From IMG/VR virus record IMGVR_UViG_3300012983_001373, positions 1 to 64,000 of that record: a stretch of DNA of 64,000 nt. One strand, written 5' to 3'. The position numbers and the translations under genes are program-made. The DNA comes from a virus (taxonomy: Duplodnaviria; Caudoviricetes). Below are positions 4,736 through 33,144 of the stretch, in pieces; position 1 is the first letter of the stretch; each line of letters opens with the position of its first letter. The notes under the pieces were generated by a model that searched no databases, had not been told where the DNA came from, and saw nothing but the letters and a program-made list of their open reading frames with translations.

Positions 4736-6640
4736 ATGGAGCAAGCAATAAATATATTTGATGGATTAAATCCAGAACAAGCTGAAGCTGTTAGATCTAT
4801 CTATGGACCTGTGTTAGTTAATGCAGGACCTGGTGCAGGGAAGACAGCAACTCTTACTAAGAGAGCACAATATATGATAATGCAGGGCATAGACCCTGCT
4901 TCTATTCTTTTAACTACATTTACTAATAAAGCTGCTACGGAAATAAAAGAACGTATAGTAAAAGTAGTAGGAGAAGAAGGAAAGCAAATAACTGTAGGAA
5001 CTTTTCATAGTGTATGCAATAGAATATTAAGAATATATGGTCATAAATTAGGATACACTAAAACTTTCACTATATTAAGTGAAGATGATACTGATAAGGT
5101 TATAAAAAAAGCAGCTAAACAATATGGTCTTGATAATAGTGACTTAAAAGCCTATATATCTGATTGTAAATCAAGACTAATAACTCCTGCTAAAGCATTA
5201 GCAAATGCTAAGAGCAATGAGTTATCTTTAGCAAATGCATATGACGTATATCAAAAAACTATATTTGATAATCAATCAATGGACTTTGATGACCTATTAT
5301 TAAATACTGTTATCTTATTAGAAAACTATGCAGATGTTAAAAAGGCATTAAATAACAAATGGAAATATATATCTGGAGATGAAGTTCAAGATAGTTCTGA
5401 TACAGATGCTAGACTTATGGAATTATTAGCTGGAGAAGAACAAAATGTGTTCTTAGTAGGAGATGACCTACAAGGCATATATAATTTCAGAGGTGCTAAC
5501 ATAGATGTTATATTAAATCTTGAATCAAGATATCCAGGACTTAAATTTATAAACTTAAAGAATAATTATAGAAGTACAGACACTATAGTTTATGGAGCGA
5601 AATCTTTAGTTGATAAAAATAAAAAGCAATTAAAGAAAGAATTACATGCAGCTAGAGAAGTTAAAGGCGCTCCAATAATACAAACTAAGTGTAAGAACCA
5701 AGAGCATGAGGCACGTAATATCGTAACTTATATAAAAATGTGCCACAATAAATATAAAATACCTTATAACGAAATAGCAGTATTATATAGAATGACATAT
5801 CTAAGTAGAAATATAGAAGAAGCTTTAATGAAAGAAAAAATACCTTATACTTTAATAGGTTCTATACCTTTCTTCTGTAGAGAAGAGGTACAAGATATTT
5901 TAGCTTATATAAGAGTTATACTAAATGAAAAAGATATGTTAGCTTTTACTAGAAGTATAAATAGACCTAAAAGAGGTATAGGGGATGCTAGTTTAAGAGC
6001 CATAGAAGAATTCGTTAGAACACATGCAATAAATGAAATGACTCCTAGAGCAGCATTAGTTCATCCTGATTTACAAAAGAAATTAAGAGGCAAAGCTAAA
6101 CAAGGAGTAAAAGATTTTGCTGAATTCCTTGATAAATTAGAACAAAAAGTATCTGAATTATCTCCTAGCAAATTAATAAATTGGCTTATAGTAGAATTAG
6201 ATTATGTAGGTTATTTACAAGAGACAAAAGATGAAAAAGATTTACAACCTAAAATAGAAAACTTACAAGAGCTTGTAAATGTTGCGTCTGAATACAATGA
6301 TTTAGAAGACTTATTAGTACAAGCATCATTATACAGAGAAGATACTGAAGACAATTCTGATAAAGTTCAACTTATGACTATGCACAAATCAAAAGGATTA
6401 GAATATAAAGCAGTTATAGTAGCAGGTTGTGCAGAAGGAATCTCTCCTCATTATAAAGCTTGTGAAGATCCATTACAAATGGAAGAAGAAAGAAGATGCA
6501 TGTATGTAGCTATGACTAGAGCCAAAGACTATTTATTTATGACTTATCCTTCTATGATAAAGATACAAGGCAAGGATAATTATGCAAAACCATCAAGATT
6601 TCTAAATGAAATCAATCCAAAATATGTTTATAAAAATTAA
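4736..6640 (+). CDS. pcrA: UvrD/PcrA-family ATP-dependent DNA helicase
   Basis: LNPEQ, AGPGAGKT, TFTNKAA, DEVQD, VGDDLQGIYNFRGA, NYRST, MTMHKSKGLEY and YVAMTRAK motifs. Confidence 0.95.
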   Translation: MEQAINIFDGLNPEQAEAVRSIYGPVLVNAGPGAGKTATLTKRAQYMIMQGIDPASILLTTFTNKAATEIKERIVKVVGEEGKQITVGTFHSVCNRILRIYGHKLGYTKTFTILSEDDTDKVIKKAAKQYGLDNSDLKAYISDCKSRLITPAKALANAKSNELSLANAYDVYQKTIFDNQSMDFDDLLLNTVILLENYADVKKALNNKWKYISGDEVQDSSDTDARLMELLAGEEQNVFLVGDDLQGIYNFRGANIDVILNLESRYPGLKFINLKNNYRSTDTIVYGAKSLVDKNKKQLKKELHAAREVKGAPIIQTKCKNQEHEARNIVTYIKMCHNKYKIPYNEIAVLYRMTYLSRNIEEALMKEKIPYTLIGSIPFFCREEVQDILAYIRVILNEKDMLAFTRSINRPKRGIGDASLRAIEEFVRTHAINEMTPRAALVHPDLQKKLRGKAKQGVKDFAEFLDKLEQKVSELSPSKLINWLIVELDYVGYLQETKDEKDLQPKIENLQELVNVASEYNDLEDLLVQASLYREDTEDNSDKVQLMTMHKSKGLEYKAVIVAGCAEGISPHYKACEDPLQMEEERRCMYVAMTRAKDYLFMTYPSMIKIQGKDNYAKPSRFLNEINPKYVYKN

Positions 6641-6657
6641 TAAGGGAGGAATATTAT

Positions 6658-6948
6658 ATGATTTATAAAGTTAAGTATAAGGACGTAATTCATAATGAAC
6701 ATTCTATATTTTGTCATGCAAATTCGTTAGACGATTTAGGAAAACAAATCATAGACTATCATGCAGTCGTAGACCATCTAAATAAAGAAGAAGCATCTAT
6801 TCATTTTAATGAATTGAGTTATATAAAAGAAGGATTATATGAATATGACATAGATGTGTCTCTTAATCATTTATTTAAAGACGATGTAGGCTCATTGACA
6901 TTAGCTAATCAATATCATGGCACAGTAGAACTTGTAAAAGAAATATAA
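6658..6948 (+). CDS. Hypothetical protein
   Basis: ORF with GGGAGG RBS. Confidence 0.7.
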   Translation: MIYKVKYKDVIHNEHSIFCHANSLDDLGKQIIDYHAVVDHLNKEEASIHFNELSYIKEGLYEYDIDVSLNHLFKDDVGSLTLANQYHGTVELVKEI

Positions 6949-6979
6949 TAAAAATTATAATTATAAAGGAGAGATTTAT

Positions 6980-7567
6980 ATGAATAAAAAAATAAAAAGT
7001 TTATTAGTTGCTGGATTATTAGTAGTTGGAATGAGTGGAAATGTATTTGCAAATGAATCAGAACTACCTACAGTATCAACATCTACAATATCTTATCCAA
7101 AATTTGAAGATGGTAAAAGAGTTGTAGAACTTCAAGGCGGTCTTATAGTAGTTGAAATGACAGAAAAAGAAAATGGCGAATATGATATAGTTGTAAAATG
7201 GAAAGAAGAAAGTATAAAAATACTAGGAGTAAAATCATATTATGAAAATGGTTCTATAGAACATACAAATTATTTTGAAGAATTATATCATTGCAACACA
7301 TTAGGGAAAGACGGAGAATTCGTTTTTGGTAAAGTTTTAGGAGGAGGACAAGGATTCTCTGGTCCTTTAGGAAAATTAGTCAAAGTTGAAGTAAAATTTG
7401 AAAATCTTACAAAAGGCAATGAACCAATAGTTCCACCAGTAACACCACCAGAAGAAGATATAGATGATCCAGAAACAGGAGACGCTAGTTCTTTAATAGT
7501 TGTAGGTACAGCAATAGCTTCAGCTATAGGAGTTTATACATTAAGTAAAAAAGATGATGAAGAATAA
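6980..7567 (+). CDS. Secreted cell-wall-anchored protein (predicted sortase substrate)
   Basis: N-terminal Sec signal (MNKKIKSLLVAGLLVVGMSGNVFA), Pro/acidic linker, C-terminal DPETG followed by a hydrophobic stretch and a KK tail. Confidence 0.85.
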   Translation: MNKKIKSLLVAGLLVVGMSGNVFANESELPTVSTSTISYPKFEDGKRVVELQGGLIVVEMTEKENGEYDIVVKWKEESIKILGVKSYYENGSIEHTNYFEELYHCNTLGKDGEFVFGKVLGGGQGFSGPLGKLVKVEVKFENLTKGNEPIVPPVTPPEEDIDDPETGDASSLIVVGTAIASAIGVYTLSKKDDEE

Positions 7568-7575
7568 TTAATTAT

Positions 7576-7601
7576 AAGCAGGGATTTTCCCTGCTTGTTT
7601 T
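7576..7601 (+). terminator. Terminator-like hairpin between the substrate and sortase genes
   Basis: AAGCAGGG/CCCTGCTT stem followed by GTTTT. Confidence 0.6.
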
Positions 7602-7617
7602 ATAGAAAGGAGGTTGT

Positions 7618-8289
7618 ATGAACAAAAAAGCAAGGAAGATTTTGAGTTTTGCATTGACTGCAGTTTTATCTATAAGCTGTTGGGAAGTAGGAAAGAAACA
7701 ATATCATTATATATCTAATCAAAGAGAACACGCTGCTCTTATTAGAGAAAAAGAGAAAACTGATATTCAAAACTATCTATATGATAAAGAATACGATTGG
7801 ATCAATCTTTCTAATACGGCAATAGATTATCCTTTAGTTATAGCTACAGACAATCAATATTATTTAACACATAACCATGAAGGAGAATCAAGTATTGCTG
7901 GTGCAATCTATTATGATTCTTCAGATGAAATTTATAATGGAAATTTAACTGTTATATATGGACATTCTATGAGAGATGGAACTATGTTTAATAATCTACA
8001 CTATTTCCCTAAAGATATAGATAGATTCAATTCTTCTGAGCTAACGATAAGTACTAAAGAAGAAGATAAGAAATACAAACCTTTAGGTTTTGCTATATAT
8101 AACGGTAACGATTCTTTTTATAACCAATTAGATACTATAGATACAGGTTCATTAAAAGCATCTTTACAAAATAGATGTGAATATATTAATAATACAGAAA
8201 TAAGACATGATGATCATATAATAGGATTAGTTACATGCGACTACAGTATTAACAATGGCAGATTAATTGTATTCTATATTTCAGAATAA
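7618..8289 (+). CDS. srtB: Class B sortase
   Basis: N-terminal membrane anchor; WI..SNTAIDYPLV..TDNQYYL, GAIYYD, IYGHSMRDGTMF (catalytic His), LVTC (catalytic Cys), NGR (catalytic Arg). Confidence 0.9.
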   Translation: MNKKARKILSFALTAVLSISCWEVGKKQYHYISNQREHAALIREKEKTDIQNYLYDKEYDWINLSNTAIDYPLVIATDNQYYLTHNHEGESSIAGAIYYDSSDEIYNGNLTVIYGHSMRDGTMFNNLHYFPKDIDRFNSSELTISTKEEDKKYKPLGFAIYNGNDSFYNQLDTIDTGSLKASLQNRCEYINNTEIRHDDHIIGLVTCDYSINNGRLIVFYISE

Positions 8290-8302
8290 AGGAGAATTTA
8301 TT

Positions 8303-8463
8303 ATGAAGAAGAAAAATTTTTTGATTATGCATTCTGGGCAAGTGTTGCCATGTTTGTAATAGGATTTGGATTCGTGTTAGGTGAAGTTCAACCAATTGGA
8401 TTATCTTTAACAGGGATAGGAGTAACAGGTTGCATAATAAGCTTATTAAATACTGAGGAATAA
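8303..8463 (+). pseudogene. Small two-TM membrane protein gene requiring a -1 frameshift (or carrying a 1-nt deletion)
   Basis: AAGGAG RBS and ATG 8303. The 0-frame stops after 18 aa. The -1 frame after the A5T6 run reads FDYAFWASVAMFVIGFGFVLGEVQPIGLSLTGIGVTGCIISLLNTEE and ends 2 nt before the next ATG. Confidence 0.55.
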
Positions 8464-8465
8464 CT

Positions 8466-10133
8466 ATGATTGAACTAAGAAACAAAGATAACAACAATTA
8501 CTTTTTAGATTTTACAGGTGAGCTGCGTGATAGATTTATCTTATTGCGCGAGCTTGCTTATTATTGTGATGAAATAAAAAGGATAGACGACAATAGATGG
8601 ATAATTAATAAAGATATAGGACGATTATTAGAAGATAAGTTTAATGCACAACGAATAGTTGAACCTTATGAATCAATAGGACAAGGTTTAAAGTATGACC
8701 CTTATATGTATCAAAAAGAAATAGTTTACTTCGCTATGAATCATGACAATAGTTTAGTAGTTTCTCCTACTGGTTCAGGTAAGACTATGATTATGATAGC
8801 TTTATATAATGAATTAAGACTTTCTAATAAAATAAATATGCCTGGTATTATAGTCGTTCCTGCATCACTTAAGTACCAATGGACTAAAGAAGTATCTAAG
8901 TTCTCAAATTATACAGCTAAAGCAATTGATTCTCCTAGTAAAATGGGTAAAAAGTTTGACGCCCAGTTTGAAGATTGTGATTTGTTTATATGCAATTATG
9001 AAGTACTAAAGAATAAAAGCGTTGCCGATAAATTATTCGCTGCAGGCTGTGAGTTTATCGCTGCTGATGAAATACAATATGTTAAATCACATAAAGCAGT
9101 AAGAAGCAAAGCATTGTATGCGTTTAACAAACTGCCTTATAGATATGGGTTTACAGCGACGCCTATTACGAAAAACCCTGAAGATATATTTGGTATATTT
9201 AATTTCATAGACCAAGACTTATTTCAAAAACATGGCAAGTTTGCATCTAATTATATTGTATATAAAGGACATGGTAGAGTAGCTGGAGCTAAGAATGTAG
9301 ACCATTTAAAGAGTCAAATATCACCTTATATGTTTATTAAAACAGAAGAAGAAATATCAGATCAATTACCTGAGTTAATAGTAACTCCTATATATATACC
9401 TATGGATAAAAAGACTGCTAAGATTAACGAAGAGATAATGGCCGATTTAAAGAAGGCTCAAGATACAGTAGATGCTATAGAAGCTAGAATAAAAGACCCT
9501 AAACTATTAGATATCAATGCAGAATATAGACAAGCATCAGCTAAAGTATTAGCTTATCAAACATTTGCGCAAGAACTTGCAGATGACCCACGACTATTAA
9601 AAATGTCAGAGTCTACTATGTCTAATCAATATGATGTTGAAGGATTAAAGAATCCTAAGTTAGATACATTAATTGACTTAGTTAATGACATTATAGAAGC
9701 AGATGAAACTGTTTGTATATTTACACGCTATGAAAGAATGCAACAATTATTAATGAATGAATTAAAACAAGAGTTTAAAGGAGTTGATATAGCTTATATA
9801 AATGGTTCTATGAACGCAGAAGAAAGATATGAACAAGCATATACTTTATTCCAAGACACTGACTCATATAAAATTCTAATAATGACTAATGCAGGACAGG
9901 CGGGTATAAGTTTATCTAAATGTAAAAACTTAATAGAATATGATTTAGCTGATTCATATGCTAATCAAATACAAAGACACGGTAGAATAAAAAGAGCTGA
10001 TTCTATAAGTCGTATATCAAATGTTAAACAACTTATACTGGACGATAGCTATGATAAGATAGCAGAAAAGATAATCACTAAGAAGAAGAACTATGACGCC
10101 GATATAATACAATCTTTAAAGGAGAATGATTAA
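8466..10133 (+). CDS. SNF2/SF2-family helicase
   Basis: YQKE Q-motif, SPTGSGKT, VVPASLKYQW, ADEIQ, GFTATP, AGQAGISL, QRHGRIKR. Confidence 0.9.
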   Translation: MIELRNKDNNNYFLDFTGELRDRFILLRELAYYCDEIKRIDDNRWIINKDIGRLLEDKFNAQRIVEPYESIGQGLKYDPYMYQKEIVYFAMNHDNSLVVSPTGSGKTMIMIALYNELRLSNKINMPGIIVVPASLKYQWTKEVSKFSNYTAKAIDSPSKMGKKFDAQFEDCDLFICNYEVLKNKSVADKLFAAGCEFIAADEIQYVKSHKAVRSKALYAFNKLPYRYGFTATPITKNPEDIFGIFNFIDQDLFQKHGKFASNYIVYKGHGRVAGAKNVDHLKSQISPYMFIKTEEEISDQLPELIVTPIYIPMDKKTAKINEEIMADLKKAQDTVDAIEARIKDPKLLDINAEYRQASAKVLAYQTFAQELADDPRLLKMSESTMSNQYDVEGLKNPKLDTLIDLVNDIIEADETVCIFTRYERMQQLLMNELKQEFKGVDIAYINGSMNAEERYEQAYTLFQDTDSYKILIMTNAGQAGISLSKCKNLIEYDLADSYANQIQRHGRIKRADSISRISNVKQLILDDSYDKIAEKIITKKKNYDADIIQSLKEND

Positions 10134-11882: not shown

Positions 11883-12203
11883 TTGATTTGCAATAGCTGT
11901 AGTAAAAAAAGTGTATGTAAATACATTGACATTATAAATGATTTACCTAGAGAAATAGTCGCACAGATTATTTCTTGCGGTTTTTCTTCTAATAATATCG
12001 CACAAGAAACATCTTCTAAACCTGTACAACCTACGTATAGACAACCTATTAAATATACAGAAGATAATGTTGTATTATTGCATGATGATAAACCAATTGA
12101 GGAAGAAGAAAGAATAATAGTTGACTTAAATGATTTAGATAACCTAAAAGAAAAAACCGTAAGTATGCTAGATATTTTAACTTCGGAGGGTGAAGATGAG
12201 TAA
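11883..12203 (+). CDS. Hypothetical protein with N-terminal Cys cluster
   Basis: GGAGGTG RBS, TTG start; CNSC...C motif. Confidence 0.65.
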   Translation: MICNSCSKKSVCKYIDIINDLPREIVAQIISCGFSSNNIAQETSSKPVQPTYRQPIKYTEDNVVLLHDDKPIEEEERIIVDLNDLDNLKEKTVSMLDILTSEGEDE

Positions 12204-12945
12204 AGAGAGATTACCAATTGATTCTTTAATCAAACATTTAAAACAACATAAAGATGCTGTTATAGTACTTGGTTCTAAAATAATAACAGATGAAATGTTT
12301 AGAGTAGATGAAAAAACAAAAGAGATTTATAACAGAAAAACTATGATAAAAGAACCAGATAAGTTCTGGAAGTTTTATTCTAAATGTATTATGTCTATGC
12401 CAGAAGAATATTCTAACGATATAGTTAAGAGTATTAATAAATTACTGGAACTAAATCTTCATTCAAAAGTAATTGACATTAATCTAATTAATAGTGTAGA
12501 CGATGTGATTAGTCCTAATGGTAGAACAGACGTGCTTGAATGTGTTAAGTGTCATAAACAGTTTAATCCTTATGAGATGAAAGAACAACTTGAGAATCAA
12601 GATAAAGTTTTTAAATGTGAATGTGGCGGAAATATAAAACCTACAGTTCTATTCTTTGGAGAAAAATATACAACTCCTGTTTATGATAGTGTAAAAGACG
12701 CTGTCTTTACAGAAGAGAATGGAAAACCTGCATTAAATACTCATACACTTATCTTTATAGGTGTTGATTTTATGGATTCATTAACTGAAGAAATGATTGA
12801 TAGCTTTGATGCATTAAAAACTAAAAATCAATTTACAGTTATTATAGATAACACTCAAACTAATCTGATATATTATGAACCAGAGTTTGGTGTATCAGAC
12901 GAATTAGACAAAGGTATTAATCGTCTAATTGAATTATTGAAGTAA
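12190..12945 (+). CDS. Sir2/sirtuin-fold protein with degenerate catalytic motifs
   Basis: EPDKFWKFY, Zn module CVKC...CECGG, IKPTVLFFGE and LIFIG retained; GAG.S, TQN.D and HG motifs replaced. Confidence 0.75.
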   Translation: MKMSKERLPIDSLIKHLKQHKDAVIVLGSKIITDEMFRVDEKTKEIYNRKTMIKEPDKFWKFYSKCIMSMPEEYSNDIVKSINKLLELNLHSKVIDINLINSVDDVISPNGRTDVLECVKCHKQFNPYEMKEQLENQDKVFKCECGGNIKPTVLFFGEKYTTPVYDSVKDAVFTEENGKPALNTHTLIFIGVDFMDSLTEEMIDSFDALKTKNQFTVIIDNTQTNLIYYEPEFGVSDELDKGINRLIELLK

Positions 12946-18086: not shown

Positions 18087-21000
18087 ATGTATTATGTACC
18101 TTTACACGTCCATACATCAAGAAACAGCATAGGAGATAGCATATTAAAACTTAATGACTATATAGAAAAAGCTAAGTCATTAAACTTAAATGCATTAGCA
18201 AACACTGGTCATGGATCATTAGCCGATATGTATGACTTTTATTTTGCATGTATGGACAATAAAATAAAACCTATCATCGGTTGTGAAGTATATATAACCG
18301 AAGATATGAATGAAAAAACAAAAGATTCTAAAACATATCACATGGTTTTACTAGCAAAAGATAATGCAGGATTAAAAAACTTAATAAACATTGTTTCTGT
18401 AGCATCATTAGAAGGATTCTATAAGAAGCCTAGAATAGATTTAAACTATATAAGAGAGCATAATGAAGGATTAATATGTTTAACAGCGTGTGTCGGAGGC
18501 ATGCTTCCTAAATATATATTGAGCGGAGATGAAGAGTTAGTTGACTCTCATATAAAAGAATTAATTGAAGTGTTCGGAACTGATTTATATTTTGAATTAC
18601 AACCAGGAAACTTTGCTGAACAAGTTACTGTTAATAACAAACTAATCGAACTTTCTAATAAGCATAACATTCCTCTTGTTATAACTAATGACATTCATTA
18701 TTTAAATAGTGACGAATATAAAATACATGACTACCATGTGCGCTTAGGTAGACATATGACTTTATCAGAAAATCCTGATGAATTAATCTATGCAGATACT
18801 TGCTACTATCTTATGTCTTATGATGAATTAAAAGATAAGATGAATATGTATGATTCAAAGATAGTAGAAACAGCTTTAGCAAACACTGTTAAGATAAGTG
18901 AAGAGTGTAACGTTACAGTAGAAGTTAAGGATTTAAATCTACCAGTATTTGATTGTCCTGATGGTTATACTCCTGCACAATATATAGAACACTTATGTTT
19001 CAAACGTTTAGATGAAATCTATTTTATGCTGGACGACCCTAATGTATATATAGATAGATTATATTATGAACTCGAAACTCTTGAAGAAGTCGGCTTTACA
19101 TCTTATATGTTAATCATGTGGGACATATATAGATACGCACGCGAAGAAGGTATTCTAATGGGACCAGGACGTGGTTCAGTGAGCGGAAGTGTAGTAGCAT
19201 ATTTATTACAATTAGTAACGATTGACCCAATTAAATATAATTTATTATTTGAACGTTTCACTTCTAGATATCGTAAAGGAACTGTACCAGATATAGATAT
19301 GGATTGTCCGTCTCAATACAGAGAGAAAATGTTTAAATATGTTATAGATAAGTACGGAATAGACCATTGTGCGGCAGTTAGTACTTTTACTATGCGTAAA
19401 GCTAAGAGTGCTATAAGAGATGTGTGTAGGTTATTAGAAATAGATTTAGAAACGGCTGACAAAATAGCTAAACTAATACCTACAGTATATTATTTAGATG
19501 ATGATTCGGAAGAAGATAAGTTAGTAGACTTATCAATTGAAGAAGCATTAGAGCACGTACAAGAGCTTCGTGATTATAGAGATGTTTATCCAGAGCTATT
19601 TGAAATGGCGCAAAAACTAGAAGGATTAGAATCTAGTACTTCAATACATGCAGCGGGAACTTTAATTACTAATGCTCCTGTAATGGAATCTATGCCTATG
19701 ATAAGACAAGATAAAAAAGAATTACAGGCAACTGCATTAGAGTTAAGAGCATGTGAATCAGTTAAAGGAATCAAGTATGATTTCTTAGGATTAAACACTC
19801 TTGATATTATAATCTATTGTCAAGAATTGAGCGGCGACTATTTTGATATGGAATTTGATAAGTGCGATGATGAAAACGTGTGGAATTTAATTTCTTCTAA
19901 TAAGACTACGGGGCTATTCCAAATTGGTACAGATACTTATAAAAAGAGAATGCCTAGACTGGCTCCTAAAACTATTAATGAATTGGCAGCATGTTTAGCA
20001 TTAGTACGTGGACCTTGTATCTCTTCTGGTTCGGATGAAGTATACATGCAGATACAAGAAGGAGAACGTGAGATAGAATTAATACACCCATACTATGATA
20101 GTGTTACGAAAGACACTAACGGCGTTATGATATTCCAAGAACAATTAATGAATGTATGTGTTAATATGGGTGTAAGTATTGAACGTGGATTCCAAATAAT
20201 GAAGTTCTCTTCTAAGAAGAAGTTTGACAAACTTAAAGAGGCCTAAGACGAGTTAAGAGAACTAACTATAAATTCAATGTCCGAAGAACAATTTAAAAAA
20301 GTATTTACTATGATAGTAGACTCAGGGAAATATGCATTCAACTCTAGTCATGCTGTAGCTTATGCTATGGTCGGATATACGACAGCTTATTATAAATATT
20401 ATTATCCAAAAGAATTTATAGCATCTACTTTATCATATATTTATTTGAACGGAGGAGACGTTAAGAAACGACGCAAAAAAATAGAGGAGATATTTAATGA
20501 TGCCCGTGAACTTGGGATAAAATTCTTACCACCTGATATACAAAAATCATCTTGGAAGTTTACTATAGAAGGTGATGCAATAAGAATAGGATTATGTGCA
20601 ATAACATCTTTCAGTGAAGCAGCTTATAATGAAATACTTGATAAGTGTTTACCATTTGAATCGGATAGAAGTCTTATAGCACAGATACACGAAAAAGTGC
20701 AAAAGACTAAATGTGGAAAACGTGCATTAATACCTTTAATATTCTCTGGTGCGTTAGGAGAGAATACATTAGATATCTATAATGAGTTTTGTACTATAAG
20801 AAAAGAAGAAGCACTTGATGAAATTAAAGTGCATAATAGTTTAACAATAAAACCTGACTTAACAAGCTATGAAATAGAAGAAGCTTTATTAGAAGTGGCA
20901 TATACTAATCATCCTGCTAATAATTTTGCCAAGGTCGGATTGGATAATATAGGATTATTTAAAGAAATTAAAATGGATGCATTAGTTACAAGAGTTAAGA

Positions 21001-21185
21001 CTCATAAAGCTAAGAACGGAACTATGGCGTTTATGAGCTTTGATACAGGAGACGGAATCATAGAAGTAACAGCATTCGCTGACACTTATAAGACTAGCAA
21101 AAAATTATTAAAGAAAGGGAAAGTTATAAAAACAACTATAAAAAAAACAAATAAAGGGATAATATTTATGGGCGCTGAGGAGTAG
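18087..21185 (+). CDS. dnaE: DNA polymerase III alpha subunit with one in-frame TAA at 20244-20246 (ORF track splits it into 18087..20246 and 20277..21185)
   Basis: PHP domain (LHVH, IIGCE, TNDIHY), GPGRGS, PDIDMD catalytic motif, HAAG, KYDFLGL, FQEQ. After the TAA the same frame continues into YAFNSSHAVAYA, PPDI..S and a C-terminal OB fold. Confidence 0.9.
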
Positions 21186-22914: not shown

Positions 22915-25900
22915 ATGCTTATGAGCAACGCTAACACATATAGTACATTAATGCCGTTGAATGTAGGAGATATCGCTGGTGGGGCTTTATATGCCACTCA
23001 GCTATCTTATGATATATATACAAATGAATTAGTTTATATGTCCTTTGTTGGATATAAAACTGCAGTCGATAAAGTTAATGAGGCCTTAATTAAATCAAGA
23101 GACACAATAAACATTAGATGTAAATCTATATATTGTACAAAACCTAGAGGCTCTCAATATATAATGGAAACACATAAAAATGCAGATAGCGATTTAGTTC
23201 ATGCTACTGTATTTAGAAAAGACTTTACTAGAATGGATTCTAATGCAGAAGAATTTGGTTTATATCTTTACGTAAAAGAAGATGACCCTAATAAAACGGC
23301 TAGACTTAAAGAGTTACTTTATGATAAATTATATAAATATAGTTCTGTACCTTTAATAGAGGAATGGATTGATTATATATATAACTATATAACTAACAAC
23401 AGATTGTTAAGAGAAATGAGAACTATATTAAATGAAGAAACTCCAGAAGTTGAAATCTTTAAATACGTAGGGAATCAAGAGTCATTAAAGAACATCGTTC
23501 AAGAAGGTTTAAAAAGTGGAACGATAAACATTAAAGGGAATAACGACCCATCAATCTTATTGGCTGATATAGGAGGACTAAATGATTATCTATCTATCTT
23601 TGGTTCTATGTTAGCCGAAAAAATACAAAATAAATTTAAGCCTAAATTCATACCTGGTACAGATGAATATAGCAAATATATGAACAATATAGATGACTTT
23701 ATACATCATAAAGGTGTTGAATTATATCAAGCACAAATGGCAACTATACAATCTGTAGCAAACAACTGGAAATTAAATCATCATAGTTTCATAGTTGGAG
23801 AAATGGGTACAGGTAGTGAGGTATATAATATATAATTTTTAGTAATATCATAGTGAGGTGGTTAAGAATGATAAACTATGATAAAGCAAAAGAATTATAT
23901 ATACAAGGTAAAAGTTTACGAGCAATTGCTCAAGAGTTAAACATTAATAGGAAATTATTATCTAAGAAACTAAAAGAAGAAGGAATTATAATCAGAGATC
24001 CTAATAAAAATGTTATGGCAAAGTCTATAAGAAAACATCCTTTAAATGAATCAGTTTTTGAAACTATTGACACAGAAGAAAAAGCTTATTGGTTGGGCTT
24101 TTTATATGCTGATGGATATATAAGCGAAGACAGAGGGAGTATAGAATTGTCTTTAGCCGAATATGATTTAATGCATATAGAAAAATTTAAAGCTTTTCTT
24201 AATTGTGATAACGAAATAAAATATCGACCAAATACTAAAGCTTATAGATTAGTAGTGTATTCAAAAAAGATAACTGATGATTTAGTTCGTTTAGGATGCT
24301 TTCAAGCTAAATCTTTACTTTTAAGATTTCCAAATGAATCACAAGTACCTACTCATTTAATCCATCATTTTATGAGAGGTTATTTTGATGGAGATGGTTG
24401 TATAGTTTATTCAAAATCAAATAAAGGAAAATCTTATCAACTTAGATTCAGTGTTATAGGCACAAAAGAATTCTTAGATGATTATGAAAATTTACTTTTA
24501 ATTAATATGAATAAAGCAAAAGCAAATAAAAGAATTCCTCAAGGAAATGCTTATGCTATTAGATATTCTGGGAATAAACAAAACAAATGTATTTTTAATT
24601 TCTTATATAATAATGCAACTATTTACCTTGATAGAAAATATACCAAATTCATTGCCGTCTTAGGACAAGAAGAGGATGATAAGGAGTCCTAAGATAATTA
24701 GTGCGGAATTAAGCGGGGAAGCGGGTGTATAATATACCGTAATCCGAACCGAAGGCTAGAAGTAAAGCTCTAGTCAGGGGCAACGCATAGTAGGTGAACC
24801 TCTTAATTGAGAATATAATCCTGCCACGAGGCCGCACCACGTACCTCTTTACGTGAAAAGATATGCTGAACTAGTCTGTAATGGACTAGAAGTACGGATA
24901 AAAAGCCGTGCGATAACAAAATTGAAGACGATACAATCGGGTGCAGCTTGTTATGTTCATAATGCTAATAAAAACAGAGGCTTTAATGCAATGATAATGT
25001 GTCCTTCACATCTAGTTGAAAAATGGAAATCTGAAATGGAAAAATATGTTCCTAATGCTAAAGGATACATTATACACAATTTAGATGAATTATTAGAGTT
25101 AGAAAACAAATTAAGAAATAGAAACAGAATAGAAAACATGTTCATCATAATGAGTAAAGAAATAGCTAAACTTGGATTTGATGAAAGACCTGCAGTTGTA
25201 TGGTCTAAATCTAAAAGATGTTTTGTTTGTCCTGAATGTGGACAGCCAGTATTCAAAATAGAAAATAGACAACAACCATATAGCAGAAGAAAAGTAAAAG
25301 TTAAAGTTAATTTAACTGAAGAAGATTTCGTAAAACAATTTGCTCACAATATGAAATGTGCTAACACTGTAAAAGTTTGGGACAAAGAAAAGAAACAACA
25401 CGTTGAAAGAACTTGTGGCGCTAATTTATGGACAGCTCTTAATAGAGATGACCAAACTCACGGATGGATAAAATTAGGTGAAGCTGGTTGGATTAGAATG
25501 GAGCATATACTTGATTTAACTGAAAAGTATATGAGCAAAGATAAACTTGATAAGAAAGAAACTGCTTTATTTAATAAATTATTTGACCAATATACATTCT
25601 TTCAAGAACATGGATATTTTAATATAACTTATAAAGGACCTAAGAAATATCCTATAGCTAATTATATACACGAAAGAATGCCTAAAGTATTTGATTATTT
25701 ATTATTAGATGAAGCACACTTATTAATGAATAATTCATTACAAGGACATGCAGCACATCTTCTAATGAGAGCAGCAGAGCACACAGCTTTATTAACTGGT
25801 ACTCTTTTAAATGGTTATGCATCTAATATATTCTATACTTTATTCAGAGTATGTCCTAATATAATGATTCAAGAAGGATTTAGATATGAAGATGAAATGG

Positions 25901-27527: not shown

Positions 27528-30500
27528 ATGGCATTGCAAGTTACTAAAAAACTATTATCATCTTCATTAGATGGTTCTCATTATAGTTCTAAATCTCAGA
27601 CTCAACTTTGGATAGTTATTCATAATACTGGAGGAGGAACAGCTACCTCTGCTTACAACTGGTTTAATAGTCCATCTAATCCATATAAAACATCTGCACA
27701 TTATTGTGTTGATGATACTCAAATTATACAATGTCTAGAAGACAACTGGAAAGGACATCATGCTGGTGGTAGCGGCGTCAAATATAATGATAAGTATAGA
27801 CCTAGTAATTCTGAAGAATGTACTAACTCAAACTCTATAGGTATAGAAGTAGCTGACTGGGGAGGAAGCTACACTTCAGAACAATTTAGTAAGTCAGTAG
27901 AGAATGCAATAGATTTAACTATATCATTAATGAAAAAATATAATATAGATGTTAACCATGTTATTAGACATGGTGATACTCAAAATAAAGATTGTCCTTA
28001 CTATATAAATACAAAAGAAAATAAATGGGGATATTTTAAAGAGCAACTAGCTAACAGAACAGGTGGACAAATAATAGAAAATCCTAATCCATCAGACCCT
28101 AGTTCTGGTGGTGGTTCTGATCCTGGTAGTGGTTATTCACCTACTACTGGTGGCGGCTTCGTTAATACCAACCCTTATTGGCACGATTATTGGAATGATT
28201 CATATGATATACTTCCTAATGTAGACCATAGACCTAATATAGCTAATATGGATGAAGTAAAAGGAGCTTGTTTAATTTTCTTACCTCCATATAATGCATG
28301 TGATTATAGCAATATGAAAGACCATTTTAAAAAATTAAACTGGGATAAGAAATATCATTATGTAATTAAACCCGTTAAACATAGTGACAATCAACCTACA
28401 GTAACAGAAAAAAAAGAGGAAGAATCAACATCTGCTTCTCCAACACCAGAAGAAGATAATTCTATATCTATCAAAGGTGGTTTTGAAAAAGTCGGAGACA
28501 GATTATTACAATGTCATTCTTTAAATGATAATGATAAAGTAACATATATCAGTAGATCATTGTTTAAAAGCAAACCAGAGAAACATCTAATAATGATAGC
28601 TTGTTTCATACCTCCTCAAGACGAACTAGATAAATTAGGTTATGGATTTGATATTGTTGAGCAAAATATAATCAACAGTACTGCACAAATCCTTTGGGAG
28701 AATGGTTTAAAAACAGAACAGCTATGGCGTGAATTCGATTTAAATAGATCAGCATCTCCATTAATTTATTTAGAGAGAACTCGTTGGTTAAAATTATTAG
28801 AGCAAATAGATAAACAATTAGAATGGATGAATAAATCTTATGGAGAAGTTACTGCAACATATACTCCATATGTAGCTACAGTACAAGAGATAACAGGTAT
28901 AGATATAGGTGTACCTGGTGGTTATGTAGGAAGTCCAGGTTCAGGTACTCCATCAGATCCTGATGATGGCTCTAATCCTGATATAGGAGGTATCTCTGAT
29001 ACTGCCAAAGCTGTTTGGACATTCTTTACAGGTAAAGGATTTACACAAGAATGTACTGCAGGTATAATGGGTAATTTACAACAAGAATCAGGTATGGACC
29101 CTACCAAATATCAATCTGGTGGAGGAGTAGGGCGTGGTATATGTCAATGGACAGTTGGCTCTGATAGATTTAAAAATCTAGAAGCGCATGCTAAGAGCAA
29201 TGGAAAAGACTGGAAAGATTTACAATCACAATTAGAATTTTTAGATTTAGAATTACAAGGAAAAGATCCTACAACAAAAAGTTATTTACAAAAATATGTT
29301 GGAGGATATGATAATTTTAAAAAACTAACTGATGTTAAACAAGCCTGTAAAGTTTTTGAAGACTCTTTTGAAAGAGCTGGAAAACCTATGATGGAAAAAC
29401 GTTATGCATACGCAGAAGAGTTTTATAATAAATTTAAAGGCAGTTCATCAACACAAACTGCATCTGTATATTATAGAGCAACTCTTAATACTCCTACTTG
29501 TGTTATGGCAGAAAACTTTTCTATACAACCTAGAGCAGGTGCAGATAAATTAGCATGGCCAGTTCCAGGACATAATGTAGGCTCTAGTTCAGGTTCTAAA
29601 TTCGGTATGCGTCTTCATCCTATTAAAAAAGTAATGAAAATGCACAACGGTATAGATATACCTGCTCCTAGTGGAACTGCTATCTTTACTCCTTTAGGAG
29701 GAACTGTTACTACTAATGCTTATCAAGCTGGTGGTGCAGGAAACTATATAAAAATAGACCATGGTAATGGACTTACAACTGTTTATATGCATATGGTTGA
29801 AAAAAGTCCTTGCGCCAAAGGTTCTACTGTAAAAGCTGGACAACAAGTAGGTAAAGTAGGGACTACAGGTGGTAGTACAGGAAACCATTTACATTTTGAA
29901 GTACATGAGAATGGTAAAGCTGTTGACCCATTAAGCTATACATCATACGGAGTTGAAAAAGGAACTCTAGACGGTAGTGAAATAATTCAATCAGGAGGAG
30001 GAGACCATAGTACTCCAGGAGAAAATGGGTCAGGAAACAATAACAGTGGATGGACTGGTTCTGATGAAGGAGTTGTTATAGATCCTTCTTCATTAGTTTA
30101 TTCAACTGCTGGAAATATAGTTAATCCTGGACCAGCAGGTGCTTTTGACGGAAGTCTTAACAGTATGGGTGGATTAAGCCACGAAGACTGGGGAGGAAAA
30201 ACTACTTATAAAAAAGGAGATGCTTCAAACCCTAGTGCGGCTAAACCTAAAATGACAACTATTGTATCTAAAGAAGACTATAAAGAATTTTGCGACGCTT
30301 TCTTTACTGGTTATGAAGTCGATGAAAATAATGAAATAATTCAAACATATGACTTCAGAAACTATTGGAAACTTGTAGACCTATATGTAAGTGAACATGA
30401 ACCATATGATAAAGGATTAGTTGATGCTGTATATGCAACAGTACAACCTAATGATAGATTAGAAAGCTTAACTAAAAACTTTACGACTGTAAATGAAAAT

Positions 30501-33069: not shown

Positions 33070-33144
33070 GCTGGTATAGTTGCAATGGAAGAACGCGCCC
33101 TTGGTACGGGTGAGATTCGGGTTCGATTCCCGATACTAGCTCCA
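33070..33144 (+). tRNA. tRNA-Thr(GGU)
   Basis: Acceptor GCTGGTA/TACTAGC plus TCCA; anticodon stem CGCCC/GGGTG with loop TTGGTAC; T-arm TCGGG-TTCGATT-CCCGA. Confidence 0.9.

What the first reader, a model, noticed from the sequence alone, without database searches (positions are those of the whole stretch)
6980..8289. Phage-encoded sortase B with its own cell-wall-anchored substrate
Seen: amid replication genes, a secreted 195-aa protein with a signal peptide and DPETG-hydrophobic-KK sorting signal is followed by a class B sortase with intact His/Cys/Arg. A terminator-like hairpin between them would favour substrate over enzyme expression. Knowledge: sortases covalently attach proteins to peptidoglycan, and clostridial SrtB recognises (S/P)PxTG-type signals. 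They are bacterial or ICE genes rather than typical phage cargo. Inference: the phage installs a small beta-rich protein on the infected or carrier cell wall, e.g. for receptor masking, superinfection exclusion or altered adhesion. This is the best candidate for an undescribed system here.
Basis: partly seen in the sequence, partly recalled or inferred. Interest (0 to 1): 0.85.

Follow-up and report, generated by a model that had tools for sequence, protein, structure and literature searches.

The report
Phage sortase B with own substrate
A large uncultured gut phage carries its own cell-wall "stapling" enzyme (a class B sortase) just after the one secreted protein built to be stapled, so it probably fixes a small protein of its own into the wall of the infected Gram-positive cell; the module is real and widespread, but a preprint of October 2026 already described this kind and nobody has tested it.

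Summary
ORF 6980-7567 encodes a 195-aa protein with a signal peptide, a 119-aa beta-sandwich, a Pro-rich stalk and a DPETGD / hydrophobic / KKDDEE sorting signal. ORF 7618-8289 is a membrane-anchored class B sortase with His116, Cys207 and Arg215. A strong hairpin lies between the two genes.

It is not an assembly chimera. GC content and codon usage match the phage. The pair was adjacent in all 12 distinct related loci fetched, most from large phage-like contigs (up to 268 kb).

- The motif is [DE]-P-x-T-G-D in 91 of 96 relatives.
- A hairpin follows the substrate stop codon in 11 of 11 loci, with unrelated stem sequences.
- In one lineage the sortase start codon overlaps the substrate stop.
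- The signal peptide and sorting signal are conserved "handles", and unrelated passenger domains are swapped between them.
- The passenger here is an orphan fold.

The kind is already published: Yuan & Chen, bioRxiv 10.64898/2026.10.24.761521, report 24 gut huge phages with SrtB plus an upstream PXTG substrate. This scan also met it on other DNA (e1-5657609, e1-5768379, e1-5768389).

I rate it a new member of a known kind. Covalent wall anchoring is likely (about 0.75). The biological role is unproven; superinfection exclusion or receptor masking is my favoured guess.

The parts
6966..6973 (+). Shine-Dalgarno sequence (AAGGAGAG) of the substrate gene, 6 nt before the ATG
   Evidence: Read from the sequence. 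A strong GGAG-type site stands at the same distance in all 12 related loci.
6980..7567 (+). Substrate gene, 195 aa, a secreted protein built for wall anchoring
   Evidence: It has 155 relatives at E<=1e-3. It is the only ORF with a sorting signal in the 103.6 kb held.
6980..7051 (+). Signal peptide (residues 1-24), a conserved 5' 'handle'
   Evidence: Median identity is 0.76 in 116 relatives, against 0.42 for the passenger. Nucleotide identity is 88-94% to loci L002, L008, L009 and L010, two of which carry unrelated passengers. Contigs of runs X5 and X10 diverge exactly after base 7051.
7061..7417 (+). Passenger domain (residues 28-146), a compact beta-sandwich of unknown function with a nearly invariant Cys105
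   Evidence: The AF2 model has pLDDT above 90 over about residues 30-145. No convincing fold or sequence relative was found. An exhaustive profile search found only 24 clusters.
7418..7465 (+). Short Pro-rich acidic stalk (residues 147-162)
   Evidence: Alignments A1 and A2. pLDDT is low here.
7466..7483 (+). Sorting motif DPETGD (residues 163-168). The predicted cleavage is between Thr166 and Gly167.
   Evidence: [DE]-P-x-T-G-D occurs in 91 of 96 family members. The cleavage site is inferred from C. difficile SrtB, which cuts (S/P)PXTG between T and G (PMC4155245).
7484..7564 (+). Hydrophobic segment (residues 169-188) and charged tail SKKDDEE (residues 189-195)
   Evidence: The tail pattern [KR]K(K/D)DEE is conserved across the family.
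7574..7598 (+). Stem-loop (11 bp, loop of 3) followed by UUUAU at 7599-7603: a candidate attenuating intrinsic terminator
   Evidence: dG -16.1 kcal/mol, z -3.0. A hairpin of -13.6 to -20.7 kcal/mol starts 0-8 nt after the substrate stop in 11 of 11 loci, with unrelated stem sequences.
7609..7613 (+). Shine-Dalgarno sequence (GGAGG) of the sortase gene
7618..8289 (+). Class B sortase, 223 aa, with an N-terminal membrane anchor. Catalytic residues: His116 (7963-7965), Cys207 (8236-8238), Arg215 (8260-8262).
   Evidence: The AF2 model has pLDDT 89.6. The top 17 Foldseek hits are all class B sortases (E 6e-17 to 4e-13), and classes A and C appear only from 1e-7.

Best explanation
This is a self-contained surface-display cassette of a large tailed phage that infects a low-GC Gram-positive (Bacillota, probably clostridial) gut bacterium.

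Proposed mechanism, step by step:
1. The substrate is exported by the host Sec system and its 24-residue signal peptide is removed.
2. Its C-terminal hydrophobic segment and charged tail hold it in the membrane.
3. The phage's own membrane-anchored class B sortase cleaves between Thr166 and Gly167 of DPETGD.
4. The sortase transfers the protein onto the peptidoglycan precursor, so a 119-residue beta-sandwich on a stalk of about 16 residues becomes covalently built into the host wall.
5. The hairpin right after the substrate stop codon ends or attenuates most transcripts. Much substrate and little enzyme are therefore made.

The signal peptide and the sorting signal act as constant address labels. 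Related phages swap unrelated passenger domains between them.

Shown here: the gene anatomy, the enzyme class, motif conservation, hairpin conservation, passenger swapping, and the phage origin of the cassette.

Inferred: export, cleavage, anchoring, and the hairpin's effect on expression.

Favoured but untested role: the wall-embedded passenger changes the infected cell's surface so that further phages adsorb or inject poorly (superinfection exclusion or receptor masking).
For: Enzyme class:
- Pfam Sortase scores above threshold and TIGR03064 gives 4e-33.
- All PDB sequence hits are SrtB.
- Foldseek separates class B (at most 4e-13) from classes A and C (at least 1e-7).
- The His/Cys/Arg residues are conserved.

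Substrate:
- It has the full signal-peptide plus sorting-signal architecture.
- The motif [DE]PxTGD is kept in 91 of 96 relatives.
- It resembles the proven clostridial SrtB motif (S/P)PXTG; one C. difficile substrate reads SPKTGD (PMC4155245).

Dedicated pair:
- The substrate is directly followed by the sortase in all 12 distinct related loci fetched, L002-L012 and L022-L028.
- It is the only sorting-signal ORF in the 103.6 kb held.

Selection: dN/dS for close pairs is 0.27-0.37 for the substrate. Across all sortase pairs it is 0.12-0.44.

Phage origin:
- IMG/VR virus record.
- Tail and tail-fibre families, and a 1795-aa amidase / tail-lysozyme / M23 protein.
- Cassette GC of 0.31 and 0.28 against 0.30 for the window, and codon-usage r = 0.94.
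- The nearest sortases in bacterial species representatives are only 27-46% identical.

Attenuator:
- Hairpins in 11 of 11 loci with different stem sequences.
- In four loci the sortase ATG overlaps the substrate's last codons and the hairpin lies inside the first sortase codons.

Passenger swapping:
- The L009 and L010 passengers are unrelated to this one, yet the signal-peptide DNA is 88-89% identical.
- Metagenome contigs diverge exactly after the last signal-peptide codon.

Context for a role at the cell surface: in locus L025 an Ltp-type lipoprotein family (PF07553) lies 2.7 kb downstream of the cassette. By my own knowledge, not checked here, that family includes a known injection-blocking exclusion protein.

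Independent report of the same architecture.
Against: - No experiment exists for any member, here or in the preprint.
- The generic anchor HMMs fall just under their cut-offs, and TIGR03064 is under its equivalog cut-off.
- The host is unknown.
- The stalk is very short for a protein that must reach the outside of a thick wall. The domain may therefore be buried, which fits receptor masking less well than a role inside the wall.
- The passenger has no recognisable fold relative, so the role is a guess.
- The terminator scanner did not call the hairpin, and its U-tract is short.
Confidence: 0.75

Rival explanations
1. Colonisation or adhesion factor. The anchored protein changes how the infected or carrier cell sticks to mucus, feed particles or other cells. 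It would benefit the host-phage pair in the way prophage-borne surface proteins such as SasX do, rather than blocking other phages.
For: The preprint's long substrates carry SHIRT and FctA-like adhesin or pilus domains. Prophage-borne LPXTG proteins such as SasX are known. The samples are all from guts.
Against: No integrase was found in the 103.6 kb held (fragment only). The cassette sits among replication genes of what looks like a lytic-style large phage. The stalk is only about 16 residues, too short to project a 119-aa domain beyond a thick wall. The passenger shows no similarity to adhesin domains.
Confidence: 0.15
2. Wall-embedded ligand or nutrient relay in the manner of IsdC. A small single-domain SrtB substrate, buried in the wall, would bind a small molecule such as haem or a metal through the conserved Cys105.
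For: The architecture matches IsdC: signal peptide, one beta-sandwich of about 120 aa, a short linker and a SrtB signal. The top Foldseek rows are NEAT domains (IsdX2, IsdC, IsdX1), but only at E about 0.02. Cys105 is nearly invariant.
Against: VIA-align does not rank NEAT domains among its 50 best. There is no Pfam NEAT hit. The last strand lacks the haem-ligand Tyr pair of NEAT domains (alignment). Swapping of unrelated passengers does not fit one fixed ligand.
Confidence: 0.06
3. The sortase does not anchor the protein to peptidoglycan. It polymerises it into a pilus-like fibre or only releases it, as some class B sortases of streptococcal pili act on pilins.
For: Class B pilus sortases (Spy0129, 3psq; S. 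pneumoniae 4y4q) are among the structural matches. The window's protein contains YPK at residues 40-42.
Against: That Lys is not conserved in the family; A, I, E or N stand at the position. There is one substrate gene only, with no second pilin and no second sortase. The best matches are the clostridial housekeeping SrtBs.
Confidence: 0.03
4. Artefact or dead cargo: a host fragment joined to the phage by mis-assembly, or a decaying moron.
For: Sortases are almost absent from isolated phages. INPHARED gave only weak hits of 24-41% identity, mostly in unannotated records.
Against: The pair is conserved in many independent assemblies and contexts. GC content and codon usage are those of the phage. 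Selection is purifying. The catalytic residues are intact.
Confidence: 0.01

Closest known systems
SrtB-plus-substrate modules of gut-associated huge phages (Yuan & Chen, bioRxiv 10.64898/2026.10.24.761521, 24 Oct 2026)
   Same: A phage-borne class B sortase with intact His/Cys/Arg. The substrate gene lies immediately upstream and carries a signal peptide and a PXTG sorting signal. The substrate length (195 aa) falls inside their 175-1047 aa range. The source is animal gut. The variable passengers are read as a modular display system, and receptor masking is raised as speculation.
   Different: Their set is 24 genomes over 200 kb, whereas this record is a 103.6-kb fragment (CheckV 39%). They describe the long SHIRT/FctA substrates, not the short ones. 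As far as the text held here shows, they do not report the following:
- the acidic-flanked [DE]PxTGD consensus;
- the conserved hairpin between the genes, or the overlapping start codon;
- the nucleotide-level conservation of the signal-peptide handle with a swap point at the cleavage site;
- the much wider spread, with at least 155 and 165 clusters at 90% identity.
Clostridioides difficile SrtB and its (S/P)PXTG substrates (PMC4155245, PMC4591827; PDB 4UX7, 5GYJ)
   Same: A class B fold (Foldseek E 1e-16, TM 0.67-0.73). The P-x-T-G core is often followed by Asp, as in SPKTGD. Cleavage between T and G and peptidoglycan anchoring have been shown experimentally for that enzyme.
   Different: Only about 25% identity. 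The bacterial enzyme is a chromosomal housekeeping sortase with several unlinked substrates. The phage enzyme has one adjacent substrate, and the position before Pro is Asp or Glu instead of Ser or Pro.
S. aureus SrtB-IsdC (NPQTN; PDB 1NG5, 2O6P)
   Same: A dedicated class B sortase encoded beside a small single-domain substrate with a short linker. From my own knowledge of the literature, IsdC ends up inside the wall rather than on its surface.
   Different: The motif is NPQTN, not PxTG. IsdC is a haem-binding NEAT domain. The phage passenger lacks the NEAT Tyr ligands and matches NEAT domains only weakly.
Ltp lipoprotein of Streptococcus thermophilus phage TP-J34 (Pfam PF07553), a surface-exposed superinfection-exclusion protein
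   Same: A phage-encoded protein tethered on the outer face of a Gram-positive cell envelope. A member of this family lies 2.7 kb from the cassette in locus L025. It is the functional analogue for my favoured role (my own knowledge of Ltp).
   Different: Ltp is tethered by a lipid anchor, not by a sortase. There is no sequence similarity, and no Ltp domain in the part of this genome that is held.
SasX/SesI, a prophage-borne LPXTG surface protein of staphylococci
   Same: A phage-carried sortase substrate.
   Different: It relies on the host's sortase A and the LPXTG motif. It sits on a temperate SPbeta-like prophage, and its role is colonisation and virulence.

Membership tests
Class B sortase (MEROPS C60B; Pfam PF04203; NCBIfam TIGR03064) | Sortase domain detected above the curated threshold | tested here: met
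   PF04203 scores 33.3 bits against a gathering score of 26.6.
Class B sortase (MEROPS C60B; Pfam PF04203; NCBIfam TIGR03064) | Catalytic His, Cys (in a TLxTC-like strand) and Arg | tested here: met
   His116 and Cys207 (in LVTCDYS) are invariant, and Arg215 is present in over 90% of 32 relatives. They align to the catalytic residues of B. anthracis and L. monocytogenes SrtB.
Class B sortase (MEROPS C60B; Pfam PF04203; NCBIfam TIGR03064) | Closer to class B than to classes A, C, D or E in sequence and fold | tested here: met
   All 15 phmmer hits in the PDB are SrtB. Foldseek ranks 1-17 are all class B (E 6e-17 to 4e-13), and the first class C or A hit is at 1e-7.
Class B sortase (MEROPS C60B; Pfam PF04203; NCBIfam TIGR03064) | Score above the NCBIfam equivalog cut-off for srtB | tested here: not met
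   TIGR03064 scores 114.6 bits against a cut-off of 153.75. It is a divergent clade, not an equivalog of the staphylococcal or listerial enzyme.
Class B sortase (MEROPS C60B; Pfam PF04203; NCBIfam TIGR03064) | Transpeptidase activity on its motif | not testable with these tools
   This needs a peptide-cleavage or anchoring assay.
Sortase substrate with a cell-wall sorting signal | N-terminal Sec signal peptide | tested here: met
   Residues 1-24 form a Lys-rich n-region, a hydrophobic core and a VFA site. The segment is highly conserved. No SignalP was available, so this was judged by eye.
Sortase substrate with a cell-wall sorting signal | C-terminal motif, then a hydrophobic segment, then a basic tail, 17-45 residues from the end | tested here: met
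   DPETGD lies 33 residues from the end, followed by 20 hydrophobic residues and then SKK. The generic LPXTG HMMs are just below cut-off (PF00746 14.8 vs 20 bits; TIGR01167 14.4 vs 15.9).
SrtB-substrate module of gut huge phages (Yuan & Chen 2026) | SrtB gene in a phage genome with the substrate gene immediately upstream, carrying a signal peptide and a PXTG sorting signal | tested here: met
   the description is.
SrtB-substrate module of gut huge phages (Yuan & Chen 2026) | Genome over 200 kb (huge phage) | tested here: inconclusive
   The record is a 103.6-kb linear fragment estimated at 39% complete, which would imply about 265 kb. Relatives occur on contigs of 216-268 kb.
NEAT domain (IsdC-like haem binders) | NEAT profile match and the haem-ligand Tyr pair on the last strand | tested here: not met
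   There is no Pfam NEAT hit at E<=0.1. The last strand has no Tyr pair. The Foldseek NEAT rows reach only E 0.02 and NEAT is absent from the top 50 VIA rows. The fold comparison by itself is inconclusive.
Sortase-polymerised pilin | Conserved pilin-motif Lys (YPKN-like nucleophile) | tested here: not met
   YPK at residues 40-42 is present here, but the Lys is replaced by A, I, E or N in relatives.

The most novel reading that the evidence does not exclude
The cassette may be a recombination-ready display vector. A near-invariant signal-peptide handle, and a handle made of the sorting signal, hairpin and sortase, would let large gut phages exchange passenger domains at the signal-peptidase site. 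The wall-embedded passengers would act as decoys or masks, matched to the receptor-binding proteins of competing or sibling phages, making this a covalent, sortase-based form of superinfection exclusion. Under this reading, passenger type should co-vary with tail-fibre type.
Probability: 0.25. Interest if true: 0.7.

Novelty: new member of a known kind. Interest (0 to 1): 0.45.

Why it matters
Sortases were thought to be bacterial (or plasmid and ICE) enzymes. A phage that brings both the enzyme and its only substrate can rewrite the covalent protein coat of a Gram-positive cell without relying on host specificity. If the anchored domain blocks further infection, this would be a new physical basis for superinfection exclusion in gut Bacillota. 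The orthogonal motif-enzyme pair, with its built-in expression ratio, could also serve as a surface-display tool. The concept was published as a computational preprint a month before this scan. The value here is confirmation on further DNA, plus mechanistic details that make the system easier to test: the motif consensus, the attenuator hairpin, the coupled start codon, and the swap point of passengers.

Tried and rejected
- blastn of 6600-8500 against INPHARED phages gave no match. tblastn of the substrate gave none. tblastn of the sortase gave only hits of 24-41% identity, mostly in unannotated records, including Listeria and Staphylococcus 'phage' records that may include host flanks.
- PHROGs and PADLOC gave nothing for either protein.
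- The scan of bacterial species representatives with the substrate alignment found no relative. Only signal-peptide patterns were used, so this is weak evidence of absence.
- ESM Atlas gave no usable hit. A substrate profile against PDB sequences gave nothing below E 0.07.
- The long proteins hit by the passenger profile (694-2396 aa) looked spurious on Pfam for the three that gave any hits (P0252, P0254, P0256): scattered partial matches or a filamin-repeat protein. P0251 (2396 aa) had no Pfam hit at all.
- The NEAT and pilin readings were rejected (see the membership tests).
- An internal Cys-Gln thioester (Cys105 with Gln52) was considered. Gln52 is not universal, and no coordinates were available to measure the distance, so this was left untested.
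- RNA evidence: one metatranscriptome library (X10) holds contigs 92-99% identical to the helicase, the substrate 3' end through the hairpin into the sortase (7330-7652), and the sortase (7708-7922). DNA carry-over cannot be excluded and no silent control stretch could be laid, so this is not counted as evidence of transcription or read-through.
- No integrase, Peptidase_S51 or Ltp domain was found in the 103.6 kb held. The record is a fragment, so this does not show absence from the phage.
- dN/dS of distant substrate pairs (0.6-1.15) was judged unreliable because of saturation and poor alignment.
- The sigma-70-like promoter at 6932-6961 is not above chance in this AT-rich DNA (10 found against 12.8 expected).
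- Complex prediction was not used, because enzyme-substrate pairs are a poor use of that test.
Full report
**What is there**

The window is the first 64 kb of a 103.6-kb linear IMG/VR virus record, estimated at 39% complete and 30% GC. On the + strand the order is:
- a UvrD-like helicase (4736-6640);
- a 96-aa ORF with no family;
- the two genes of the finding;
- an SNF2 helicase, a Mu Gam-like protein and a primase;
- further on, NrdD and a DNA polymerase.

The minus strand carries tail and tail-fibre families. A 1795-aa protein combines amidase, tail-lysozyme and M23 domains. This is a tailed phage that has to cross a peptidoglycan wall.

**The substrate**

ORF 6980-7567 (195 aa) has four parts:
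- a classical signal peptide (residues 1-24);
- a domain that AlphaFold models with pLDDT above 90 as a compact beta-sandwich (about residues 30-145);
- a short Pro-rich acidic stalk;
- DPETGD, then 20 hydrophobic residues, then SKKDDEE.

It has 155 relatives at E<=1e-3 in the metagenomic protein collection. In 96 aligned members the motif is [DE]-P-x-T-G-D, with P, T and G in 93 and the final D in 91. The tail is [KR]K(K/D)DEE.

This is a variant of the clostridial SrtB motif (S/P)PXTG. C. difficile SrtB has been shown to cleave that motif between T and G, and one of its substrates reads SPKTGD (PMC4155245).

The generic LPXTG models score just below threshold. This is the only ORF with a sorting signal in the 103.6 kb held.

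**The enzyme**

ORF 7618-8289 (223 aa) passes the Pfam Sortase threshold. It matches TIGR03064 srtB at 4e-33 but stays below the equivalog cut-off. In the PDB it hits only class B sortases.

His116 and Cys207 are invariant and Arg215 nearly so. An AlphaFold model (pLDDT 89.6) has a long N-terminal helix as membrane anchor. It matches C. perfringens and C. difficile SrtB best (E 6e-17 and 1e-16). Seventeen class B structures rank ahead of any class A or C sortase.

**Not a chimera, and a conserved pair**

- Cassette GC (0.31 and 0.28) equals that of the phage (0.30). Its codon usage correlates with the replication genes at r = 0.94.
- In all 12 distinct related loci fetched, the substrate homologue is followed directly by the sortase homologue. 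Most come from large phage-like contigs, including IMG/VR records of 98-227 kb and a 268-kb ENA contig. In one of them, L022, the substrate frame appears broken.
- The surroundings differ between lineages: helicases here; gyrase and phosphorylase in one lineage; ClpB, Peptidase_S51 and Bro-N in another.
- Close pairs show purifying selection: substrate dN/dS is 0.27-0.37. Across all sortase pairs it is 0.12-0.44.
- Bacterial species representatives hold only distant SrtBs of 27-46% identity (Oscillospiraceae, Eubacteriales, Clostridia). One of these has an ordinary SPKTG substrate nearby.
- The substrate was not found in bacterial genomes (a pattern-limited search).

**The hairpin**

In the window an 11-bp stem (7574-7598, -16.1 kcal/mol, z -3.0) is followed by UUUAU, then GGAGG, then the sortase ATG. 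In 11 of 11 loci examined, a hairpin of -13.6 to -20.7 kcal/mol begins 0-8 nt after the substrate stop codon. The stem sequences are unrelated between lineages.

- In seven loci a U-run and a separate ribosome-binding site follow the hairpin.
- In four loci (L005, L025, L027, L028) the sortase ATG lies inside the substrate's last codons (GATGAAGAATAA). The hairpin is then part of sortase codons 5-14.
- In those four loci, base changes keep the stem while the encoded residues change.

I read this as an attenuating terminator, with translational coupling in one lineage, that sets substrate well above enzyme. This step is an inference.

**Swappable passengers**

Identity to the window's protein is highest in the signal peptide (median 0.76). 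It is intermediate in the sorting signal (0.55) and lowest in the passenger (0.42).

The substrates of L009 and L010 have the same signal peptide and sorting signal. Their signal-peptide DNA is 88-89% identical over 72 nt. Their passengers show no detectable similarity to this one (BLASTP E 4.8 and 0.083).

Contigs from a gut DNA run and from an RNA library match the window up to base 7051, the last base of signal-peptide codon 24. They then continue with the L010-type passenger.

Substrate and sortase identities are also discordant between loci: L008 has 77% and 47%, L009 has 36% and 52%.

So the cassette has constant address labels and exchangeable cargo.

**The passenger itself**

- Foldseek's best rows are NEAT domains, but only at E about 0.02.
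- VIA-align's best is a TRAF/MATH domain at Z 5.5, which is within the noise for beta-sandwiches.
- The PDB profile search and the ESM Atlas gave nothing.
- An exhaustive profile search of 1.84 billion representatives found 24 clusters. About 20 of them are the same 200-aa type of protein. Of the long ones, three looked spurious on Pfam and one (P0251) had no Pfam hit.

It is an orphan domain, essentially confined to this cassette, with a nearly invariant Cys105.

**Prior knowledge**

A bioRxiv preprint of 24 Oct 2026 (10.64898/2026.10.24.761521) reports SrtB genes in 24 gut huge phages. Each has an upstream substrate carrying a signal peptide and a PXTG sorting signal, 175-1047 aa long. The authors read this as a modular display system and mention receptor masking as speculative. 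No experiment and no RNA evidence is given for SrtB.

Earlier notes of this scan describe the same kind on other DNA. I found no other paper.

**Verdict**

The mechanism of covalent wall anchoring by a dedicated phage sortase is well supported by anatomy and conservation, but it is untested. The biological role is open.

I favour superinfection exclusion or receptor masking. The reasons are passenger swapping, the Ltp-type neighbour in one lineage, and the lytic-style context. The very short stalk suggests the domain sits inside the wall, which keeps an IsdC-like role alive.

I class it as a new member of a known, very recently described kind.

Noticed in passing
window 27528-32915 (+): A 1795-aa protein combines N-acetylmuramoyl-L-alanine amidase, phage tail lysozyme and Peptidase_M23 domains in its first 800 residues. 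It is probably a virion-associated wall-degrading giant.
   Followed up: partly
window 8350-8463 (+): A 37-aa very hydrophobic ORF lies between the sortase and the SNF2 helicase. Small ORFs of 59-61 aa also follow the sortase in L025 and L027. It could be a small membrane partner or nothing.
   Followed up: no
L002 7168-7839; L005 7922-8608; L022 6687-7295; L025 4442-5119; L027 4584-5261; L028 4752-5441: A Peptidase_S51 (dipeptidase E / cyanophycinase-like) gene lies within 3 kb of the cassette in L002, L005, L025, L027 and L028. In L022 the ORF directly after the sortase looks S51-like by eye but was not scanned. None is found in the held part of this genome. Linkage or mere synteny is undecided.
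   Followed up: partly
L025 9330-9827: An Ltp-type lipoprotein (two PF07553 repeats) lies 2.7 kb downstream of the cassette. A Tad2-like ORF, a Bro-N gene and a HicA toxin are nearby, so this looks like an accessory, host-interaction region.
   Followed up: no
L022 5302-5964: In the 135-kb IMG/VR contig the substrate gene seems broken: an 84-aa ORF with the normal signal peptide and start of the passenger, then a change of frame before the sortase. This is either a frameshift or an assembly error.
   Followed up: no
L011 6001-6855 and 6900-7562: A more distant pair: a 284-aa substrate with the motif TPGTGQ, and a sortase 40% identical to the window's. The motif flanks and the enzyme seem to change together.
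   Followed up: partly
window 6980-8289 vs L002, L008: Synonymous divergence is much lower in the substrate gene (dS 0.41-0.64) than in the adjacent sortase gene (dS 1.08-1.23) for the same pairs of loci. This hints at recent exchange of substrate alleles or at constraint on the RNA.
   Followed up: partly
about 15-35 nt upstream of the substrate's ribosome-binding site in most loci (window about 6940-6965): An AT-rich box resembling TAAATAAAAAATA recurs upstream of the substrate gene in most related loci. It could be a phage-specific promoter, but it is hard to separate from AT-rich background.
   Followed up: no
window 12190-12945 (+); 23853-24692 (+); 20277-21185 (+); 33070-33144 (+): A SIR2-family protein, a LAGLIDADG endonuclease, a stand-alone HHH_6/OB piece of a Pol III alpha-like polymerase, and a tRNA-Thr(GGT).
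   Followed up: no
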